The notes under the pieces were generated by a model. It was given only the letters and a program-made list of their open reading frames with translations, did not search any database and was not told where the DNA came from. The position numbers were made by a program, and so were the translations under genes. Positions 14,668 to 43,880 of a stretch of DNA of 64,000 bases are shown piece after piece; the stretch's first letter is position 1; each line of letters opens with the position of its first letter. Origin of the DNA: Lobosporangium transversale (taxonomy: Eukaryota); contig NW_019028992.1 of NCBI RefSeq assembly GCF_002105155.1, forward strand, positions 372,001 to 436,000, given 5' to 3'.

Positions 14668-17600
14668 GCCGTTTTTGCAGTGAAGGAAAAAGCTACTTAA
14701 ATACTATTTAAAAATGGTAGAAAATAGGATGATAGGAAATAAATAAATTGAAAGGAAATACATATTTAGGTAAATGAATAGGCGTCATTTACGACAGACT
14801 GACGTGGAAAGATCTGTCAATGATCCCAAAGATTGACAGAAAATGAACAAAATGATAATAAAAAGTTGGACGAAGTGCCAAAAGATAAATTCATAAATGG
14901 ACAAGCCCAATGCCCAGCTCATCCCAAAGGTGCTGTATAGAATTTCGGCCCAAATGTTGCCACCAAAGTTCCTACAGAAGATGACTGGTAAGTATATGTC
15001 ACTGTGTAAGCGGAAAGCACGTATGCCATCAACTACGCCAAACAGCATTATGAACCACAATAGATTGTATGCCATCAAAGACTTGGCGAACGCTCAAGCG
15101 GAAGAACAAATATCTACCCTGGCGCTTCGACTTAATGACAGCAATGTAATGGGACGGATATGTCGGACACGAGTACTGATGCTGCAGCACAGGAATAAGA
15201 TGGAAGTCTCGCCAACTTTGGAGCCACATCGTGTCAAAAAGTATCGCCACAACTTTATATCGAATGTTTGTGAAGAAATGAAGAATCGTAACATTACTTT
15301 CGACCTATCGATCGCAGCCGAATTTGGTCTCCCACACAACGCTCTCTCGACATGGAAATGGCTAAACGGAGAATTACCACACGTATGCAAGGCGCTCACC
15401 AAGCGTATGGTATACTTTGTGGATCAAATACTTACGGATGATAAGGAGGACATGATCTCATGGCACGCATTCAGGACCCGTTACGGAGGGCCTAAAGTTT
15501 CGCCATTCTGGTTCAACCAACTTCAAAACTTTTGCTTCGACAACGATTATGTGGGTAGACATGCAAGAGAATGGAACAGGAGGAAACTGGCACTCTTAGA
15601 CGTCAGTGATGATGACAGCAACAGCGACAGTAGTTATGTCAGCTCGGTAGACGGGGATACAGAAGACGAAGATCGAGAAGCGATTCGTGCACTCAACCAA
15701 TTCATAAAGGATGAGGCAGCGAACAGAACTTTGACAGTATCACCGGCTAATCAAGCTGTTGAGCCACTAATTGGAATTAAGTGGATTCTAGATCAACAGA
15801 AGGAGCGGAAAAAGAGACGAGAAGCTGTTATGAAAGAGGCGCGCAGAGCAACCAGAGAACATAATCTTAGGCGACAAAGAGCAAAGTTAGATGCCATAGT
15901 CAGAAGAGCAGAACGCCACCAGGACCGAGAGCGAAGGCATGGTGAACGCATGCGAGCCCGCGAAGAAGCGAGGAGACGCCGGACCCAGAACACAAGGAGA
16001 TATGAGGGTCTGAGCGAGCAAGCTCTGCTAAGGAGAGCAAAAGTCGACCTGGATTCCAACGAGACACCGTGCCTAAAAGTGATCCCTGAAGTCAACAGAG
16101 GCCTAGCCAGGGACACAAATGGAGTTATCATTAGCGCCAATACCGAGGAGAAAATCCAACGCCAAAGGGAACGGTACAATACCCAGCCGGGTAATGTCAT
16201 TTATACGGATGGATCTCTCAAAGATATTGGCACTGAAAGAGTAAGTATGGCATTTGGTGTGGTAGTCCAGACACAAGAGGGTGAGTTTTACACTGCGCTA
16301 TCTGGTAGAGTAGCAGGCAACGCATCCTCGACAAAGGCAGAGCTAGCTGGTTTGTTGGCAGGAATACTTATCAGCCCACGAAACAGATCTATGACAATCC
16401 GACTTGATAACAGCGCAGTTGTGACTCAATTCCGAGCATTGGTCCGAGGCAGAGTGGATAGCACGTTGCGACAACGTATTAGATCACCGTATGCAGTATG
16501 GTGGGCAGCTATACACAACGCATTTATTCAACAAGGATCGGAAGTCACGGTCGAGTGGGTCAAAGGACATGCCGGCAACAGAGGGAACGAAGAAGCGGAC
16601 GAAGCAGCAAAACATGGACATTATGGCGAGCTATGGGATATCAACATAACGGAGCATAATGACATGTACTGCCATGCAAAGTTCAACGGTGTACCAGCGG
16701 AAGATGACTTAAGGCAGATCCTTAAGTTACAGTCAACAACTCGTACACATCACACGTGGATCGCTCAGAACAGGACGCAGGAGCATGTTAAGGATTGGAC
16801 AAAAATTGATTGGCGAGCTACTATGAACATTGTTCATGATAGCAACCTACCGAAAGGACTCTTCACCAGCCCAGCGGACTGCCAAAAGCGAGCGCACAGG
16901 ATCAAGAAACTCCATGGAATGTTGCCTACACAGTCATATATGAGACACTGGAGGCCAGACCTTTATGAAGACGGCAACTGCAGAGTGTGTGGGACAGAGG
17001 ATGAAGACACATCGCACATCTGGAGATGTCCAAGGACGATGGAGACTCAGGCCGAGAAGTGGAAGGAGATAATCCAAAATGTGAATGTGATAGGGGAGAG
17101 GACATGGAGGAAAGAGTTGAAAGCAGTGCAGGAGCAAGCACAAAGGGCCAGAGAGAGGTGTAGACCCACCAAGGACAAAAGAGCCAACTTTTACTGCGGC
17201 AGAGGAGGACTACATTTGGAAAACTCTGGAGATGCATATCGATGGTGTGCGAGAAGTACGACGCCATGGTGATAGGAACGGCGATGATGAGGAAGAGAGA
17301 GAGCACACACCAGATTGGTCTGTGCAAGACATTTACCATGGACTTACGCCCAAGTCCATTGCTCAGAGTTGGAAAGTTGGCTTCAAGACAACAACAAGGA
17401 TAGCTACATATATGGCAGGGCGCTTCGTCAAGGCCATAGAGGAATTCGGTCGTACAGAAATCTGGAACAAACGGTGTAAAGTTACTGTTGAATGGGAAAA
17501 GGCTCGTGGAATCACTGCTATGAGCAAACGCGCTAGAGGACGCAACTGTGTTGGGGAGCACAGACGTAGTAGCAATGATTTCCTTGTCCCTTCCCTCAGA

Positions 17601-17937
17601 CAAAGACAGAAGCTGAATGTAAAAGAGATCTACAAGATCGCGGATGACCGAGTCCGGGACAGTTACCTTGGGAAAACCAAACTGGACGTGATGGAGCGGC
17701 TAGGTGGAATGAAGTTTTTGATGACTATGGATAGCGAATAATTTGTCGTGTTGCGCAACAGGCCACGTCGGAAAGGCGGACTTTGAGTACCAACCACGGC
17801 GGTCAGGGTTTATGAAATCATGGATACAGCGGCTCTTGTCGTTGTGCAGTAATAGCTGTATATTGACTATAGTTTCTGGAGCATTTTGTTCATAGAATGT
17901 AGAAAATAAATCCCATGACCCTGAGGGTCCTTGTTAT

Positions 17938-19699: not shown

Positions 19700-21910
19700 T
19701 TACTTTTTCTCTTCAACAACAGTGACAGGGACAGGCTCGGGTACAACGCCAGATGTGACGATGGACTCAGTCTGCACAACTGTCTCCTCAGCAGCTCGCT
19801 CCATTTTGACCTCTTCAGTGTGCGTGGCTGAAACCTCAACGACTTTGCCAGTTCTTAAGATTTTGTTGTCTGATTCCACATCAACTCCAATGGCAGCTAA
19901 GGTTATTGACATAATGTTAATAAAGTTTTAGTGTTAGAAATATGAAGCAAAGCATTACATTGTGTGATAAAGAGTGTTGAATAAGTGTAGTCTTCCTGCC
20001 ACTTACCAGCTTCCTTGGTCAAAGTCTCGATTTCTTCCTTGTCAATCGCACCCTCTGCATCCTATAGTCACAAAGACGCAAGTGAAAGAACATTAGTTAT
20101 AACAATGCAGTAACCCAAACAAACTATTAAGCACGAGGTGGTAGTAAATCTTCTCACATACCTTAGTATCATCTCCCGAGTCAGATCCAGAGGAGGATGA
20201 GGAAGAGTCGGGTTTGTAATCCTCATCTGACTCACCATCCGACTAGACCATTGTAATGTCAGGAATGTTGAGAACAAGGTCGAAAGAAGAGCATATAGAG
20301 AGATAAGTAAAATGGATTGTTCGTTTCAATTAATACTGACATTAAGTACATGCATGCTGAGATTTACAACGAAAACTTACACTGAGATCATCAAGGATAG
20401 TCTTTCCTTCGCTACCAACAGCCACACCGACGGCAGAAGCGGCTTCCTTCTTGGCCTGCTTCTCCTTCAACTTCTTCTCTTCCTTTTCCTGCTTCTCCTT
20501 CAACTTCTTCTCCTTCTTTTCCTGTTTCTCCTTTAACTTCTTTTCTTTCTTTTCTTTCTTCGCTGCCTTCTTTGCCTCGTCATCGCTGTCACTGTCGTTA
20601 CAGTCTTTCTTGATATTGGTCCTGCTGCCGCCAAAAAGACCAAGCCTCTCGAAGAAACCAGGCTTCTTTTCTTTTTGTGCCTTCTTCTTTTCTTTTTCGG
20701 CCTTTTTGGCCTTTTTGGCTTCTTCATCCAGATTCTCGTCGTCGCTGTTAGAGCTGCTAGAGTCCTCACCATCCTTGTCTTTCTTTTCCTTCTTTTCCTT
20801 CTTTCCCTTCTTTTCCTTCTTTTCCTTCTTTTCCTTCTTTTCCTTCTCTTTCTTCTCTTTCTTCTCCTTCTTCTCCTTCAATTTTTTCTCCTTCTTGTCC
20901 TCCTTATCCTTCTTTTCCTCCTTCTTCTCCTCCTCAGATTTTTCGGCCTTCTTGGCTTGGTCACCCAACTGCTCACCCAACTGCTCATCGCCGCAGCTAG
21001 CGCTGCTGGGATCCTCACCTTCTTTCTTGTCCTCCAACAATTCCTTCTCCTCTTTCTCGACATTCTTTACCTTTTTGGCTTCCTCATCCAACTGCTCATC
21101 CTCGCTGTCAGAGCTGCTAGAACTGCTAGAACTGCTAGAACTGCTTGAACTGCTTGAACTGCTAGAGCTGCTTGAGCTGCTGCAACTGCCACTGTCGGAT
21201 TCTTCGCCATCGTTCTTTTCCTTCTTCTCCTTCTTCAGCAGCTTTTTCTTCTCCTTTTCAGCTTTCTTAGCCTTCTTAGCCTCCTCATCTAACTGATCAT
21301 CATCGCTGCCAGAGCCCTCGCTGTCTTTTTTGTCTTTCTTCTCCTTCTTCTCCTTCTTCAACAGCTTTTTCCTTTCTTTCTCTTCCTTTTTAGCCTTTTT
21401 GGCCTCTTCATCCAACTGTTCATCGTCACTGCCAGAGCCGCTGCTAGAACCTTCGTCATCCTTCTTGTCCTTCTTCTCCTTTAGTTTCTTTTCTTTTTTC
21501 TCCAGCTTCTTCTTTTCCTTCTCAGCCTTCTTGGCCTTCTTGGCCTCTTCATCCAACTGTTCGTCATTGCTGCTGGAGCTACCGATGTCATTATCGTCAC
21601 CACATGAGGCCTTGATGTCCTTGGTTTCTTCCTTGGAGAGAATGATTGTTGAGGCGGAAGCACTGCCTGTAACTTGGGAAGACGAAGATGACTCGACTGT
21701 GACTGAGGTGGCGGAGAATTGACGCTCAAACGACGCGGACTGAGTGGTGGTGATAGTCTCAGTGGTGGTAGTGGAGGCTACAGATTCAGTATCGTTGATG
21801 ACGGTAGTGCTGCTGGCGGTCAAGACGGCAGGGTCCTTGACCTCAACAGTTTCGACGGTAGTTTGGACCGTAGAATGGACCTTGGGTTCTGTGCCAATAA
21901 TCTCGGACAT
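19700..21910 (-). CDS. Low-complexity, Lys/Glu/Ser-rich repeat protein of unknown function
   Basis: Exons 21910-20381, 20242-20162, 20061-20007, 19896-19700 join in frame with GT..AG boundaries. T/S/V-rich ends flank repeated DDEQLDEEAKKAKKAEKEKKK modules. Confidence 0.75.
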
Positions 21911-22508
21911 GATTTATTTGAGGTGTGAGTATGAGACAGGGGTTTGTAGAAGTGAGGAGTAAGAGTAAGGTAGATGGTATGGGCGATAAGGTCGGGTGCT
22001 AATAAAAAAGAGGAAAGAAGGGGAATGAGGAAAAGAGCGTCTTTTTTTATACTCCAGGAGTAAAATTGGGTGGCAAGACAGTTGAAGAGAGGTTGTGATT
22101 GGGGTACTATTTTATTGACTGTGAGAAATCTTGAAAGAAGAAGATGGAAAGAGTTTAAAGAAAGCACATGTGTCTGCTTGGATCAAATTGAACGGAGGTA
22201 GTCTATTGGTATAGTTACACAAACACTGGTTGGTACAATCGCTCAGGTCAGCCGAGCACGACTCCTGTCTTCACACACTTTTCTCACTCTCCGAGCATCC
22301 ACAGCTCCACAGCTGAATTGAAAGGTAAACTAAATATAGATTCATAAGATTTTCGGGAAGACGGCACGTCGTGCATTTTATCTTCCTCATACGAAGACGT
22401 ATTATACATGTATTTTAACTGTAACTGCGATATGTATTTGAACACTTGCTATGCCTGGATTTCACCATTTGTTCCCTTGTTAGTCATGTGCTACACAAAT
22501 AAAGTGAG

Positions 22509-37001: not shown

Positions 37002-39288
37002 ATGAGCAACGGACACGGCAACTTCGAGCCGGGTGGAATGGCCATGATGAGTCCACCTGACCAGAATGCATTGCGCAACGAGCAATACCAGGAACATCAA
37101 CGCAAGCTTCAAGAGAAATATGAACTCCAGTACAAACAACAAATGGAGCTTGCACAAACAAGTACTCATCCACATGATCCAGCTCCAAATGAGGGCAACC
37201 AACCTTACTATACCTCTCAAGGACAGCTCGTCATTCCAACCCCTAGTTCATGTTATCAGGCAAGACCACAATATGGCCTTGCTGACTTTGAGCTTCTTGA
37301 AACGCTTGGTAAGATTTTTGGTTTTTGGGTGTTTGTTTAGCCAGGAGGATCAGTAAAAGTGGTGTTGGAAGGAAATGTGCTCCCCTCCCTCTTAATATCA
37401 TGTAATCCAACAGTTATTCAAAGCAGAAAAAAAAAAAAAAAAAAAAAAAAACTAGCAACAATAACAATAGCAGTGACAGAAGTAACAATAACTATAACAA
37501 TAGCAGCAACAGCAACAATAACAATAGCAATAACAAAACGACAGCAGACGACAGCAGACAACAGGCATCATCTCATTAAGGAAGTAGAGTTTTGACGGCC
37601 AACAAAAAAAAAAAAAAAAAAAAAAAAAAGAGTTACTCTCATCGAATACATGTGTGGTTGGGGCAAGTGAGCATATTTGCACCTAGAAAAAAAGAAAAAA
37701 AATTGGGACAGAAAATATAAAAGAGAGAGCCAGAAATGAGAGCCGTGCAGAGCAAGTCAGTGAGCATCTGCAAAGTGAGCAAATATTTAGAGCCAACAAC
37801 GTATCCACACCAATGGATAGGGGAAGGAGACATGTCATGGCATGTCATGGATGCAGCAACAGTGGTTTTTTATCGTAATATTTCTCCTCCTGCAGTCCTC
37901 GTCACAGAGTTCTATGTGGGAGAGTCTCTTTACGGCAGCTACTCTGTTGCTCATCTGGCGTCTAGATCCTTTACTCAGTACAGCAAATAATAAGAAAGAA
38001 AAAGAAGAAAAAGAGGGGACACAAATGGAGTCAAATGGAGTCAAATAGACAGGGATATCTCAGGAGAGATACACCACAACTTGCTTTTATTTTTAATGAC
38101 GATGACGCGTTGTGAGCAAGAGGCGTTTCGCCTCTAAACAATTGAAATTGTGTCGCCTCTCTTCTGACCTCCCCCCCGCTGCGCTGTGACATATAACCGC
38201 CCACTGATAAAGGATCGACAACCATGGATACACAAACCCATTACCAACACTATGATGGCATCCCTTTGCCTCCTCTTTTTTTTTTTTTTTTTTTTCCTCT
38301 TCAACATGGAATGTTTTTCAGACTAGATTCTATCGCCATCTGTTGTTTGTTACAATTCCAGGAGCGGAGACACAGAATTGATGGATGAGAGACAAATCCC
38401 GTCATTATCAACAATATCCAAAACCTTAAAAACAGCGTTTGGCAGACATATAAACACTGAAGGCTATTCTACTTTTTCTCATGACTTGTGGGGATACGAG
38501 GGTGAAACGATGTTAGTACAGTGCAAAGAGAGGGGGATGGAGAGGGTGTGTGTATTTGTGAGCTTGAAATACCAATGTGATATTGAACTTTTTTATGCAT
38601 TGTCATGATCGACTGCACTATCACAGTCAGCTCGGTCTGAGAAGGATAGTGTCTTTATTTTCAGGAAGAAGCTCATGCTTTTTGTTTCTTTTTTCTAATG
38701 ATTTAGGTACGGGAACGTTCGGACGTGTCTATTTGACAAAGTTCCGCCGTGAACCTTCATATTATGCAATGAAAGTACTTAAAAAAACCGAGGTTGTACG
38801 GCTTAAACAGGTCGAGCATATCAACTCCGAAAAGCAAATCCTTTCCCAAGTTGATTTTCCATTTATTGTCAATCTGTGAGTGAAAAAAAAGCCAATTTTA
38901 TTTTAATGGTTATGAATGGTCTTGTCTGCTGCTTCAGACACTAATCCGAGTCTGTTTCTATACCGTATGTTAGATTTACTACCTTCCAAGACGACCGGAA
39001 CCTCTATATGTTGCTCGAGTATGTCATTGGAGGAGAGCTTTTTTCACATCTGCGGAAGGCCGGAAGGTTTACAAACGACATGACGCGCTTCTATGCAGCC
39101 GAAATTGTTCTTGCAATCGAGTATCTACATTCAAGGGATATCATCTATCGTGACTTGAAGCCGGAAAATCTTCTTCTTGATTCCAAAGGGCACATCAAAA
39201 TTACAGACTTTGGATTTGCAAAGAGAGTTGAAGACAGGTACGTAATTGTTTTAAACCGTTTTTTAACGGCAAGTACATTGCCTCCACC

Positions 39289-39323
<35 letters not shown>

Positions 39324-40013
39324 CTTTTTCATCTTTTTCAATTACTATTTTGTTTCTCATCTCAATTTTGATTCTTTTTTTGCGTGGTTTAGAACATGGA
39401 CACTGTGTGGAACACCAGAGTACTTGGCGCCTGAAATTATTCAATCAAAAGGACATGGAAAGCCTGTAGACTGGTGGGCATTAGGCATTTTGATCTTTGA
39501 GATGTTAGCAGGATATCCACCATTCTTTGATGACAATCCATTTGGTATCTATGAAAAGATCCTGGCAGGCCGCATCTACTTCCCTTCACATATTGACCCC
39601 CAGGCAAAGGACTTGATCAAGAGACTTCTCACTGCAGACCGGACAAGACGACTAGGCAACTTGAAGGTAAATCTAAAGGTTTTTTTATTTTTTTTATTTT
39701 TTTTTTTATTGGCTTTTTGTTCTCTCGATTCCATTTGTCACGACTCGGTTTCATTTTGTTTCTAATTCTTTATCTTATTTTCTGTTTAATGATTACGATT
39801 TTATTCTTTTAGGATGGATCAAATGATATCAGGAATCATAAGTGGTTCCGTGGAGTCGACTGGCAAGGTCTGTTAAACAGGACTGTGAAAGCACCTATTG
39901 AGCCACCATTTGTTCATCCTGGCGATACAGGCAATTTTGAAAAGTATCCCGAGGTGACAGACGAAGATACGGCCGATGGCGACCCCTACCGGTCACTGTT
40001 TGCCAACTTTTGA
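37002..40013 (+). CDS. cAMP-dependent protein kinase catalytic subunit (PKA-C)
   Basis: Exons 37002-37308, 38707-38875, 38974-39237, 39393-39666, 39813-40013. [64 protein letters not shown] and terminal FxxF motif (FANF*). Confidence 0.95.
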
Positions 40014-42017
40014 TATGATGCCGGAAAGATTAGCAACCAAAGCAGCATACCTCATCAATACCATTCTCCCGATAGTCAGCCAACGTCATCAGAGCAGGCA
40101 TTTCAGTCTTTTGAAGCACAAGAGCAGCAATCTCAATATCAACATCATCAATGTCCTCACAATTATCATCAACAAGAAAAGCATTTTAACTTACAGCAAC
40201 AACAACAACAACAACAACAACAACAGCAGCAGCAGCAGCAGTCATTCCATTCTCATATGGACCAGCACCCGAATCATAATCAGTCTTCTTTCGATCAAGG
40301 TTATGCTAGTCCATTTTCTGGACGAAGCCATAGCAAGAGATCGCGAATGGAGGCGGATGATGAGAGTATGACGGGTGTGAGCAATTCATCTGCTTCATAC
40401 CAAGATGATCAAAGGATAGGCCCATGGGATAGCGTACCAGAGTCGGGATTCGATCGAGACACAGCGTTGACTTCGACCTTTATTCGATCAAGCCCTGTCG
40501 ATTTGTTCCAAGGACCTGGCCCCAAAAGACATAAAGGGGAATGGGAAGGCGATTGGCCTATGTCCGGAGTCGATGGTGCAGGGAGTCCGATGGAGATGAC
40601 GTGAACAATGTAAAGCTTGGATAAGGTCGAGTTTCTGGAATTTATTTGCCTTTCACACTCCAACATTGGGCCTTCCTCATTGCTGCGTTGCCTTTTTTTT
40701 TTTTTTCTTTTCTTTTCTTTTCTTTTCCTTGCTGTTTATTTTATCTTTTTTTATTTTTTTTTTTATGCCAATCATTTTGATTGCCATCTTGCTTCCATTG
40801 TTTTTCATTTATATCCGTTTCGCTTTGTTTTGTTTTGTTCAGATCATTTTCGTTTATCCCGTTTTGCCTCTTGTGTCTCTCTGTCTCCACATGCTGCTGC
40901 TAGTCTTTCCGACATCCATCCTCCCATGGTTCCTTGCACGATTTCAAATGGATGTAGAATCATATTTTTTTCTTTCTTTACTTTTCTTTAGCATTTTCTA
41001 TTTTTATTTTTATTTTTTTTGTTGATTATTGTTATTTCTTTCATGTTTTTAGCTTATTTTCTTTCTTTATCCGCGTTGCTCAAGTTTCTTTTGTTTTCTA
41101 TTATTATTATTGCTATAGTTATTATTATTATTATGATCGCTATTATTATTAAAGGTAAAAAAAAAAAAAAAAAAAAAACTGAAGTTGAGAAGGTTGAGAA
41201 AACAAATTCCCAGAAAGCTTGTCTCTCGTTCACGTGTGTTCTCTGTGCACACAAATTTTGAGGGGGGGGAGGAACGGGATGACTGTGATCGAAATTGAAT
41301 ATTTGATATTCCATGAGCATCTATTTACAACGCAGTAAGGAGAGAGAGAGAGGAGGGAAGGAAGCCCTTGATAAATTTGATAACGGTCATTTCTGACATT
41401 AAAAAGCATCACATTAACATGCAAGAGTAGAAGGGTGTAAACAAGGATAAAAGAAAGGAAGGAAAGAAAAAAAAAAAAAAAAAAAAAACCCCTGGACGAA
41501 ATCATTACTGTCATACCTGTTTCATCAAAGAGGTTTTTACTTCGATTAATTAAATTATTGTTATTATTGTTTCAACAGCAAAGCGCGTGCTTACAGCTGG
41601 TGGCTAAATAAATAAATATAAAAAAAATAAAAAAAAAAAAATCGACATTGGTCCTTTGTCTGCGTAATGGGGTTGTGTCATATTCAAACATGAAATGTCC
41701 CGAACCCTTGGTTGAACAAGTTGTATACAAGTATTTAATTTTTTCCGGTGAATTATGGAATTGCGTATGGACGAATATTTCTCTTTTTATTTATGCTGAC
41801 AAGAAAGGTTGGGTGATAATTAATGACTATTAGGATAAAAATAATGCTGCTAAAAAGAAATGGGGTTTAAAACTATTATAGTGTACAGACAGACTTCAAG
41901 GAAAAACAATAAAAGCACATGCGGATAAAGAAAGAGTAACATTAAAAGTATTAATAATAATATATAATAATACAAATTAAAGAAAAGAAAAAAAAAAAAA
42001 AAAAAAAAAACCAGCAA

Positions 42018-43526
42018 TTAAATCCATTCCCATGTAGCGTTGGCGCGGTTAAAGCGAGCGACGCGCTGATCGCACTCAGGGCACCAATGAATACAGTCTT
42101 TGGTTTCCTCATGACCCTTGCGGAATGGCAAATACGACAATGTTCCGAGGGTTAGGAACAATAAACCAAACGCAACCAAGTAAGACATCACTCCAGGTAC
42201 AAACTGAATATGTGACACCACCTTGTTCGCGCCACAATGAGGGCAGTTGAACTTTGAAGGTCGATCTCGAAACAAGGAATGGATCGCTCCAGATTGCCGA
42301 AGCCATTCCTCCCGCCACCGATCCTGCTGTTCCTCGAGAGGAGAGCGAGGTGATGGTTGTGTAGGAAGTGATTGCGAGGGGCCATTGCTGAATTCACCTC
42401 CTTCCTGTCCAGATTGATAGTCGAACAGATGACCATTTTCTAGACCTTGGGACACAGCCATTGAAGGCGATGTATCCAACGATGACATGGAAAGGGATGG
42501 CTTCTCGCCTAGGAGGGAGGATTGTAATGAGCCCGACGAGGGCAATCTCGAACTCGGCGAAGAATGCCTACGGATCCCTTGGCCGAGGTTGCTAGCAGCT
42601 TCCGCTTTGGAAGACGCCACCTTGGACTTTTTTGATAACGAGGTGGCCTTGAATAACACGCTCAATCGCTTTTTTTTGCTTGGAACGGATGAAGGTGGTG
42701 TAATGTCTCTTGCATCTGCACGTTGAGGAGACGAAGGGAATGAAGGGGACGATGATGAGGACGAGGCAGGTGAAGCTGCAGAAAACGAGGAGGTCGCAGC
42801 AGTAGTGGCAGCAGCGGCAGCAGCAGCAGGAGCAGTTGTACGGGTAGAGGTCATTGTTGAGCGCATCATTTGTGCCTTGTACTGATCAAATTTGCTCAAA
42901 GTTGCGGGAGGATTTTGCTGACCAAAGGCGTGAGCAGCAGGATGGTTATGACGAAGGGAATGAGACTGAGGATGGTGCTGGTCGGGTATGAAGATCGTCA
43001 AGGATGGATGTCCATATTTGTATCCATCTGCATCTGCATCAGTATCTACAAATGGAGAAGGAGAAAGGGACGGCGACGACGATCCAGCAACAAGGTCGTG
43101 AGCGCTAGTATTACGACTATCTTCTCTGCTTTCACGTCGACTTGCTTGGTTGCTGTGAGAGTTGTACGACAATGGTTCTGGTACATTGCTGTAGTCGATC
43201 AGAAAAGGGTTCTGTTGTTCATGCGATCGTCGCTCTCGAAGAGAAGGTCCAACTGGAAATCGATCATAATCCCACATAGGTATGAACAGACCTGGCGGTG
43301 ACATGGGTGTGGACGTTGAGGAGGAGGTAGAAACAGCTGTGGCGGTGGTGGTAGACAGAGGTTGCTGTTTCTGCTGCTGTTGCTGTTGCTGTTGCTTTAG
43401 CAGTCGCTCCCCATGTTTTACGCCGATGGCTGCACCATTCTTTTTGACTGTAGAGGTGGAGGAAATGAAGGATGTGTGTGAGGTCGTTGTATCTAACGGC
43501 TGGGCGGCAAAAGTTGAGACAGTCAT
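42018..43526 (-). CDS. LITAF-like zinc-ribbon domain protein with long disordered N-terminus
   Basis: Single 502-aa ORF. C-terminal CPHC, hydrophobic stretch, then KDCIHWCPEC, the LITAF arrangement. Confidence 0.8.
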   Translation of the reverse strand: MTVSTFAAQPLDTTTSHTSFISSTSTVKKNGAAIGVKHGERLLKQQQQQQQQKQQPLSTTTATAVSTSSSTSTPMSPPGLFIPMWDYDRFPVGPSLRERRSHEQQNPFLIDYSNVPEPLSYNSHSNQASRRESREDSRNTSAHDLVAGSSSPSLSPSPFVDTDADADGYKYGHPSLTIFIPDQHHPQSHSLRHNHPAAHAFGQQNPPATLSKFDQYKAQMMRSTMTSTRTTAPAAAAAAATTAATSSFSAASPASSSSSSPSFPSSPQRADARDITPPSSVPSKKKRLSVLFKATSLSKKSKVASSKAEAASNLGQGIRRHSSPSSRLPSSGSLQSSLLGEKPSLSMSSLDTSPSMAVSQGLENGHLFDYQSGQEGGEFSNGPSQSLPTQPSPRSPLEEQQDRWREEWLRQSGAIHSLFRDRPSKFNCPHCGANKVVSHIQFVPGVMSYLVAFGLLFLTLGTLSYLPFRKGHEETKDCIHWCPECDQRVARFNRANATWEWI

Positions 43527-43880
43527 TGGGAAGGAATGGTTGGATTATCTTTGTATGAATGGAATAAAGAAAAAAAATAAAAAAAAATAAAATAAATAAA
43601 AAAAGATCTTTTTAACTGGACAGAGCTTTCAGGGAAATAAATGTTCTTTGTGTGGCTGTCTGAAAAAAGAGGAGAGTGTGCAGTTGTTGCTTGTGAATTC
43701 TTTGTTAGAGAAAGGGAGTGATGTCTAAAAAAAAAAAAAAGAAAGGAAAGAGCATAAGGAAGAGAACGAAGGAACAGAGAGCGTGAAGGATAGAGAATAA
43801 GTTCATTAAGATGCGTATTTACGTTTTTTTTTTTCTTATTTCTCGAAGCCCAGTAACATAAAAAAAAAAGAAAAGGAAAG

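What the first reader, a model, noticed from the sequence alone, without database searches (positions are those of the whole stretch)
40011..40604. PKA catalytic subunit stop codon is followed by 196 in-frame sense codons
Seen: after ...FANF-TGA (40011-40013) the same frame stays open to TGA at 40602-40604, encoding YDAGKISNQSSIPHQY...polyQ...MDQHPNHNQSSFDQGYASPFSGRSHSKRSRMEADDES...GPKRHKGEWEGDWPMSG...SPMEMT. Composition is coding-like and drops to T-rich UTR right after the second stop. The CAA/CAG repeat sits in the Gln frame. Inference: programmed stop readthrough, stop editing or alternative splicing gives a long PKA isoform that masks the normally terminal FxxF motif and adds a disordered tail with basic, NLS-like patches. 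An in-phase acceptor-like TTTTAACTTACAG ends at 40196. The context UGA-UAU is not the classic UGA-CUAG leaky signal.
Basis: partly seen in the sequence, partly recalled or inferred. Interest (0 to 1): 0.75.

Follow-up and report, generated by a model that had tools for sequence, protein, structure and literature searches.

The report
Conserved readthrough tail on fungal PKA
In a family of soil fungi the stop codon of a protein kinase A gene is followed by a long protein-like reading frame kept across seven genera, so ribosomes likely read through the stop, probably aided by a predicted pairing with a distant part of the mRNA, to make a longer kinase with predicted nuclear-targeting signals.

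Summary
Confirmed and extended. The gene is a Mortierellaceae PKA catalytic subunit. Its TGA (40011-13) is real in four DNA runs and in a spliced RNA contig, and 196 open codons follow (8 of 20,000 shuffles). Two metagenomic orthologues keep TGA-TAT-GAT and an open, homologous frame. Homologous tails occur in seven genera, annotated as neighbouring hypothetical genes or joined to PKA by discordant predicted introns; they share two basic clusters and a P/A-M-E-[LIM] end. New here: the first 13 codons after the stop are conserved at nucleotide level and can pair (25 of 26 nt) with a transcribed 3'UTR segment about 850 nt downstream. The 13-bp core starts after an 8-nt spacer, the anatomy of kelch and alphavirus readthrough stimulators. 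Best reading: structure-stimulated UGA readthrough (0.68). Main rival: a minor 75-nt alternative intron across the stop (0.20). No readthrough protein was shown, and the distal arm was seen in this genome only. No paper on it was found. The scan earlier reported other fungal readthrough candidates on other DNA, not this gene.

The parts
37002..37308 (+). PKA coding exon 1
   Evidence: RNA joint 37307>38706 GT..AG in X5; N-terminus like P0003/P0004; 404-aa frame
38707..38875 (+). PKA coding exon 2
   Evidence: RNA joints, translation
38974..39237 (+). PKA coding exon 3
   Evidence: RNA joints
39393..39666 (+). PKA coding exon 4
   Evidence: RNA joints; Pkinase E 5.8e-21
39813..40010 (+). PKA last coding exon, ending in the hydrophobic motif FANF (39999-40010)
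40011..40013 (+). First stop, TGA, context TTT TGA TAT GAT; likely leaky
   Evidence: same in window, L001, L002; unchanged in four DNA runs and in X5 contigs
40014..40604 (+). In-frame extension of 196 codons and second stop TGA 40602-40604
   Evidence: homologous tails in 17 other sequences
40017..40048 (+). Proximal arm of the predicted long-range helix: +4..+7, mismatch at +8, 13-bp core 40022-40034, 6-nt bulge 40035-40040, second helix 40041-40048
   Evidence: 22 of 26 arm positions invariant in 3 sequences
40891..40916 (+). Distal arm of the predicted helix, in the 3'UTR about 290 nt behind the second stop
   Evidence: 25 of 26 nt paired, pair probabilities 0.82-1.0; X5 RNA contigs cover the region; not reached by L001 or L002
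40194..40241 (+). Poly-Gln (CAA/CAG) linker
   Evidence: sequence; Gln-rich in all full-length tails
40335..40346 (+). Basic cluster 1 (KRSR), predicted NLS-like
   Evidence: 15 of 18 tails, the 3 others begin behind it
40524..40535 (+). Basic cluster 2 (KRHK), predicted NLS-like
   Evidence: 17 of 18 tails, L001 is cut before it
40587..40601 (+). Conserved terminal motif P/A-M-E-[LIM]-x
   Evidence: 17 of 18 tails, L001 is cut before it
39954..40028 (+). Rival reading only: possible 75-nt intron (GAG|GTGAC ... GGAAAG|) across the stop
   Evidence: same sites in window, L001, L002; junction used in 3 of 8 deposited fused models; no RNA joint in X5

Best explanation
The spliced mRNA of this PKA catalytic gene carries TGA followed by a conserved in-frame tail, and a share of ribosomes likely read through the UGA, probably slowed by a predicted helix between the bases just behind the stop and a 3'UTR segment about 850 nt downstream, to make a predicted 601-aa kinase beside the normal 404-aa one. 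Shown: the stop, the unspliced passage through it in an RNA contig, the conserved open frame and motifs, the nucleotide-level conservation, the complementarity. Inferred: that the helix forms in cells; that its 13-bp core, starting after an 8-nt spacer, sits at the ribosome's mRNA entry and delays termination; that a near-cognate tRNA is inserted. Inferred for function: the long form keeps the whole kinase with FxxF, gains F-A-N-F-X-Y (like the six-residue AGC hydrophobic motif, consensus recalled), and carries a disordered Gln-rich linker and two basic clusters that would send a share of PKA to the nucleus or change its partners or turnover.
For: Stop and frame kept in 3 of 3 DNA sequences: 196, 200 and at least 112 open codons. 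Window against L002: four non-zero length changes between anchors, all multiples of 3; 18 of 30 identical distal residues use different codons. Tail homologues in seven genera; three are annotated as the gene next to PKA by locus tag. Their first Met differs in every case. Third positions vary in 1 of 13 codons after the stop against 41 of 66 in the last exon (p=4e-4), the pattern described for Drosophila dfr (PMC13170385, passages). The conserved block matches the predicted helix: the core is invariant at 12 of 13 positions and the one change keeps a G-U pair; L002's block pairs with the window's distal arm at 26 of 26 positions (-41.5 kcal/mol against the window's own -36.7) and this is its best site in the window on both strands, its own complement apart. 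The helix is in the minimum-energy and centroid folds. Kelch has an 8-nt spacer, 14-bp stem, 268-nt loop and a non-CU context (PMC3159437, passages); a duplex placed just behind a stop induces readthrough in lysate (PMC11347175, section 17). X5 shows no joint across the stop although it shows four other introns and one minor acceptor.
Against: No protein, ribosome-profiling or reporter evidence. Only three DNA sequences span the stop, and only the window reaches the distal arm, so no compensatory change was seen; two G>A changes in L001 (+7, +29) break pairs against the window's arm. The helix is unusual but not extreme: 5 of 400 random probes reach its energy, 27 of 3000 random and 12 of 3000 shuffled probes reach its pairing score, at least 8 of 3000 reach L002's score; it was found in an exploratory scan after the local hairpin test failed. 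Invariance in the arm (22 of 26) is not far above that beside it (10 of 17). The whole 936-nt region folds no better than shuffles (z -0.23). UGA-UAU is not the fungal UGA-CU signal (PMC4207609, passages). RNA data are contigs of one run, which drop minor isoforms, and X5 has no contig over 40249-40431. Three deposited models from two genera use the same 75-nt intron. In the first 13 codons the few changes fit the +1 frame as well as the tail frame. The Actinomortierella tail begins with 10 residues unlike Y-D-x-G-K (P0097) and its DNA could not be read.
Confidence: 0.68

Rival explanations
1. A minor alternative intron (39954-40028, 75 nt, phase 0 to 0) would remove the last 19 PKA codons, the stop and five more codons, joining ...YPE to ISNQ...; the retained form gives normal PKA. 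The helix would then hide the acceptor and act as a splice repressor.
For: GAG|GTGAC, a branch-like TTGAT and an in-frame first AG (AAG) stand in window, L001 and L002. P0091, P0111 and P0130 use this junction; P0111 comes from AUGUSTUS with cDNA input (PMC8759367, part 1 of 2 read). 8 of 18 tails carry F-x-x-F-D, which could replace the lost hydrophobic motif. The acceptor lies inside the helix core.
Against: No such joint in X5. The 8 fused models use four donors and at least five junctions, and near-identical kinases are annotated short in one strain and fused in another (P0001/P0064, P0096/P0099), as expected of predictors bridging a stop. Linnemannia zychae keeps the tail but has E-A, so no GT at this donor (P0095). 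10 of 10 real acceptors seen are YAG and 6 of 9 donors have +5 G; the candidate has AAG and +5 C. The product would lose FxxF, and the window's tail has no F-x-x-F-D.
Confidence: 0.2
2. The tail would be a separate small protein, made by reinitiation or from its own transcript.
For: Several annotations call it as a separate gene. An ATG follows the stop at once, in the +1 frame. The A. wolfii tail model starts M-E-R, like M-P-E-R of that +1 frame. X5 has a gap at 40249-40431.
Against: No conserved start Met; the frame is open and conserved from the stop onwards, 81 codons before the window's first in-frame Met; the +1 frame closes after 118, 25 and over 111 codons and does not reach the motifs; one RNA contig joins exons 2-5 to the first 170 nt of the tail.
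Confidence: 0.05
3. A-to-I editing would turn UGA into UGG in one developmental stage, the helix serving as editing substrate.
For: Stop-loss editing extends a fungal kinase, Dbf2, with a disordered tail (PMC13123824, abstract and passages). Weak pairing may reach the stop. One RNA run samples one condition.
Against: That system uses TAG in hairpin loops, in Sordariomycetes; here the stop is TGA, with no local hairpin and no A>G in X5 contigs. One search gave no paper on mRNA editing in Mortierella.
Confidence: 0.04
4. The open frame would be a relic or a by-product of an RNA element, and not translated.
For: No direct proof of translation; Gln repeats lower the chance of stops.
Against: Synonymous-type conservation and frame-keeping indels; motifs kept from Actinomortierella to Lobosporangium; open in 3 of 20,000 shuffles without the repeat.
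Confidence: 0.03

Closest known systems
Drosophila kelch and alphavirus/Virgaviridae UGA readthrough with an extended 3' stem (Firth et al. 2011, PMC3159437, passages)
   Same: UGA stop, raised synonymous-site conservation behind it, stem of 11-14 bp after a spacer of about 8 nt, large loop; kelch also lacks the CU context (UGA-AUG).
   Different: Loop here is about 840 nt against 101-268 nt; the distal arm lies in the 3'UTR behind the second stop, so the whole extension is looped out; a second 8-bp helix follows a 6-nt bulge; fungal kinase gene; compensatory changes not yet seen.
Tombusvirid PRTE-DRTE long-distance readthrough interaction (PMC5893793, passages; PMC3234231, search listing only)
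   Same: Stop-proximal sequence pairs with an element in the 3'UTR over a long distance.
   Different: There a 7-nt kissing contact with the bulge of a local stem-loop, in a viral RNA at UAG; here no local stem-loop is predicted and the long-range helix would itself be the stem, in a cellular mRNA.
Drosophila dfr readthrough (PMC13170385, passages)
   Same: Nucleotide-level conservation around the stop, followed by protein-level conservation with synonymous changes.
   Different: dfr uses UAG and a local hairpin at +9 to +59.
Fungal UGA-CU(A) readthrough to cryptic peroxisomal signals (PMC4207609, passages)
   Same: Fungal UGA readthrough making a second isoform with another location.
   Different: No CU context, no PTS1; the tail is about 200 aa.
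Fusarium DBF2 stop-loss A-to-I editing (PMC13123824, abstract and passages)
   Same: Fungal kinase given a disordered C-terminal extension past a conserved stop.
   Different: TAG, editing, Sordariomycetes, short unconserved destabilising tail.

Membership tests
PKA catalytic subunit (AGC kinase) | Kinase domain closest to PKA-C, with AGC C-tail ending in FxxF | tested here: met
   P0065, identical to the window's kinase from GTGTFG on, hits PKA C-alpha structures at E 3.8e-126; 88 of 108 retrieved relatives end in FxxF. NCBI names P0065 PRKX-like; PKA against PRKX was not tested.
Structure-stimulated stop codon readthrough (kelch/alphavirus type) | Stop codon kept in orthologues | tested here: met
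   TGA in 3 of 3 DNA sequences
Structure-stimulated stop codon readthrough (kelch/alphavirus type) | In-frame downstream ORF with a protein-coding pattern of change | tested here: met
Structure-stimulated stop codon readthrough (kelch/alphavirus type) | Raised conservation at synonymous sites just behind the stop | tested here: met
   1 of 13 against 41 of 66 variable third positions, p=4e-4, three sequences
Structure-stimulated stop codon readthrough (kelch/alphavirus type) | Stem of 11 or more pairs after a spacer of about 8 nt | tested here: met
   predicted only: 13-bp core from +9, pair probability at least 0.99; chance level 0.4-1.3%
Structure-stimulated stop codon readthrough (kelch/alphavirus type) | Compensatory changes between the arms | tested here: inconclusive
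   L001 and L002 end before the distal arm; one-sided check: L002 keeps all pairs, L001 breaks two
Structure-stimulated stop codon readthrough (kelch/alphavirus type) | Stop not removed from the mRNA by splicing or editing | tested here: inconclusive
   not removed in contigs of one presumed RNA run, which drop minor forms
Structure-stimulated stop codon readthrough (kelch/alphavirus type) | Extended protein shown by reporter, proteomics or ribosome profiling | not testable with these tools
   none available
Fungal UGA-CU(A) readthrough to PTS1 | UGA followed by CU; extension ending in a PTS1 | tested here: not met
   UGA-UAU; tails end P/A-M-E-[LIM]-x
A-to-I stop-loss editing (DBF2 type) | TAG stop in a hairpin loop | tested here: not met
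   TGA; no local hairpin, z 0.97-1.73 for the post-stop pieces
A-to-I stop-loss editing (DBF2 type) | A>G in RNA at the stop | tested here: inconclusive
   none in X5 contigs; no raw reads, no sexual stage known
Alternative C-terminus by alternative splicing | Junction across the stop in RNA | tested here: inconclusive
   none in X5 contigs
Alternative C-terminus by alternative splicing | One conserved donor and acceptor in all tail-bearing orthologues | tested here: not met
   E-A in P0095; discordant junctions in 8 models; protein-level evidence only outside three sequences
Selenocysteine recoding | SECIS element | tested here: not met
   Rfam scan of 39700-41400 gave one chance-level miRNA hit, no SECIS

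The most novel reading that the evidence does not exclude
A family-wide programmed readthrough of the PKA catalytic subunit, in which the 3'UTR folds back some 850 nt over the whole extension to form a virus-like stimulatory helix behind the stop, and so doses an active, nuclear-targeted long PKA: a long-distance readthrough switch in a cellular mRNA and a new layer of cAMP signalling.
Probability: 0.45. Interest if true: 0.88.

Novelty: new variant of a known kind. Interest (0 to 1): 0.76.

Why it matters
PKA-C is the model kinase, normally ending at FxxF. A conserved second form with a 200-aa tail would be a new way to place or dose cAMP signalling, in a fungal family used for lipid production and common in soils and roots (own knowledge). 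The predicted helix extends the known cellular stimulators (loops up to 268 nt in the papers read) to an arm in the 3'UTR, so far described in plant viruses, and gives a direct test by compensatory mutation. It also explains a recurring annotation error: the tail is called as a separate gene or spliced on in discordant ways.

Tried and rejected
No whole genome is held. The extension alone found no longer homologue (0 of 163 candidates; weak, as fused forms later appeared), no Pfam family and no Atlas hit. Of 34 metagenome loci only L001 and L002 were Mortierellaceae orthologues; L003, L010, L015 and L023 were read and have no open tail; the other 28 (37-51% identity) were not examined. Prokaryote genomes gave 3 bacterial pattern matches, not examined further; viral contigs gave 0 of 17. 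Local hairpin behind the stop: none. The inverted-repeat list was swamped by A/T runs. No listed holder is on record as RNA; X5 is RNA by guess and by its spliced contigs. X5 has no contig over 40249-40431, which proves nothing. X6 and X7 show only G>A and C>T, read as bisulfite libraries, and were not used. The HMMER hits P0041, P0042 and P0044-P0054 were dropped as Gln-rich or repeat matches (9 of these 13 were read). A first motif count was confounded by overlapping patterns and was redone; the first QP anchor was misplaced and is counted as no change. A fold of P0111 was of low confidence (mean pLDDT 52, poor alignment) and says nothing on docking of F-x-x-F-D; a cleaner run could not be queued. 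The tree is the quick version. A +1 frameshift at UUU-U was considered: that frame does not reach the conserved motifs. A general recoding of TGA was rejected: Rps17 in the window ends at TGA. No supplementary files were read; lists of fungal readthrough candidates in supplements could hold this gene.

Full report
Observation. The sequence is as described: FANF, TGA at 40011-40013, 196 sense codons, TGA at 40602-40604. The frame is open in 8 of 20,000 dinucleotide shuffles, 3 of 20,000 without the CAA/CAG run; five other genes of the window have 10-55 open codons behind their stops. Four DNA runs (three studies; one may be the window's source) read the same letters.

The gene. Spliced contigs of run X5 define introns 37309-38706, 38876-38973, 39238-39392 and 39667-39812, which give a 404-aa protein. 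From GTGTFG on it is identical to P0065, deposited for Lobosporangium transversale, and its best solved relatives are PKA C-alpha. One X5 contig runs from exon 2 through the TGA to 40184 with no other letter and no joint; others cover 40432-40680 and 40773 onwards, while depth falls to 0.93 at 41169-41300. So the main mRNA keeps the stop and likely has a 3' region of about 1 kb. Contigs show neither strand nor minor forms, and none covers 40249-40431.

Conservation. Two of 34 metagenome loci are orthologues. Both read F-TGA-TAT-GAT-NNC-GGA-AAG-ATT; L002 stays open for 200 codons and ends like the window, L001 is open to its contig end at 112 codons. Between window and L002 the four length changes between anchors are multiples of three, and 18 of 30 identical distal residues use different codons. 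Profile searches found the tail as separate hypothetical proteins, three of them next to the PKA gene by locus tag: BGX23_003022/3, BGZ68_002401/0, BGW41_006364/3. Eight of 108 retrieved kinases are annotated as PKA-tail fusions and 88 end in FxxF. The 18 tails span Lobosporangium, Mortierella, Entomortierella, Linnemannia, Podila, Dissophora and Actinomortierella; basic cluster 1 is in 15, basic cluster 2 in 17, the terminal motif in 17, and every miss is a truncated sequence. In a quick tree 7 fused models lie in one paralogue group of 29 rows (support 82), one in Actinomortierella outside it, none among the 27 other Mortierellaceae rows; lack of a fused model is not proof that a tail is absent.

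The signal. Third positions vary in 1 of the first 13 codons behind the stop and in 41 of 66 in the last exon (p=4e-4). No local hairpin explains this. A scan of the downstream sequence then showed that 40017-40048 is complementary to 40891-40916: 4 pairs, one mismatch, a 13-bp core from +9, a 6-nt bulge and 8 more pairs. The helix stands in the minimum-energy and centroid folds, with pair probabilities of 0.82-1.0. Chance levels: 0 of 100 and 0 of 300 shuffles and 5 of 400 random probes by energy; 12 of 3000 shuffles and 27 of 3000 random probes by pairing score. L002's block repairs the mismatch and pairs at 26 of 26 positions with the window's arm, its best site in the window apart from its own complement; at least 8 of 3000 random probes score as high. 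The core is invariant but for one A>G that keeps a G-U pair. L001 breaks two pairs, at +7 (in the spacer) and at +29 (near the bulge). Neither contig reaches the distal arm, so its conservation is untested.

Mechanism. An 8-nt spacer and a 13-14-bp stem with a large loop is the anatomy reported for kelch and alphaviruses (PMC3159437, passages); nucleotide-level conservation followed by synonymous change is reported for dfr (PMC13170385, passages); a duplex just behind a stop stimulates readthrough in lysate (PMC11347175, outline and section 17); 3'UTR partners are known from tombusvirids (PMC5893793 and PMC13517186, passages). I infer structure-stimulated UGA readthrough (0.68). The product would keep the full kinase. 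PKA has a truncated hydrophobic motif (PMC6969211, passages); readthrough would give F-A-N-F-X-Y, like the full motif (consensus recalled; the Tyr is seen in three sequences only). Five Mucorales orthologues end FxxF plus sense residues, so extension past FxxF is tolerated in nature. The helix might also bring the poly(A) tail near the first stop and guard against decay of a long 3'UTR (own knowledge, untested).

Rivals. A 75-nt intron (39954-40028) is possible in all three DNA sequences and is used by three deposited models, one from AUGUSTUS with cDNA input (PMC8759367, part 1 of 2); 8 of 18 tails carry F-x-x-F-D. Against it: no RNA joint, discordant junctions in the other five models, E-A at the donor in a tail-bearing species, AAG against 10 of 10 YAG acceptors, and loss of FxxF (0.20). 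A separate protein (0.05) lacks a conserved start. Editing (0.04) has the wrong stop type and lineage (PMC13123824, abstract and passages). A relic (0.03) does not fit the motifs. Unexplained: the A. wolfii tail model starts with ten residues unlike Y-D-x-G-K.

Novelty. Searches for Mortierella with readthrough, PKA with readthrough in fungi, Mortierella PKA isoforms, Mucoromycota extensions and long-range pairing in cellular readthrough listed no report of this gene; only listings were seen, the library is partial, and no supplements were read. Earlier scan notes describe other fungal readthrough candidates and none on this gene. Verdict: a real, conserved feature and a new variant of structure-stimulated readthrough; interest 0.76.

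Noticed in passing
window 37309-38321 and 38322-38326: X5 shows a second acceptor at 38321 in intron 1 (depth 24.7 against 61.5); it gives L-E-T-L-D-stop, a kinase-less product or decay isoform that could dose PKA.
   Followed up: partly
window 40249-40432: X5 has no contig over 40249-40431 and one begins exactly at 40432, the G of a TAG, while DNA runs are continuous; a filter or an RNA-level branch could cause it.
   Followed up: no
window 37002-37308 against 38592-38706: The deposited model P0065 starts in intron 1 and misses the real exon 1 shown by RNA joints.
   Followed up: yes
P0040, P0043, P0091, P0095, P0097, P0099, P0101, P0111: 8 of 18 tails carry F-x-x-F-D behind the first basic cluster, like a second AGC hydrophobic motif or PDK1-docking site (likeness recalled); absent in the window.
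   Followed up: partly
   Followed up: no
P0021, P0022, P0023, P0025, P0029: Mucorales orthologues end FxxF followed by Cys or Ser and 1-7 more residues, as if a TGA had become a sense codon.
   Followed up: no
window 14897-17741: Two overlapping ORFs (791 and 206 codons) that look like a non-LTR retroelement with an RNase H region; read by eye, not searched.
   Followed up: no
window 20342-21913 (-): 523-codon ORF of Lys/Glu and Ser repeats, open on the other strand for 311 codons.
   Followed up: no
window 42018-43544 (-): Convergent neighbour with a C-terminal LITAF-like zinc ribbon and a long low-complexity N-part.
   Followed up: partly
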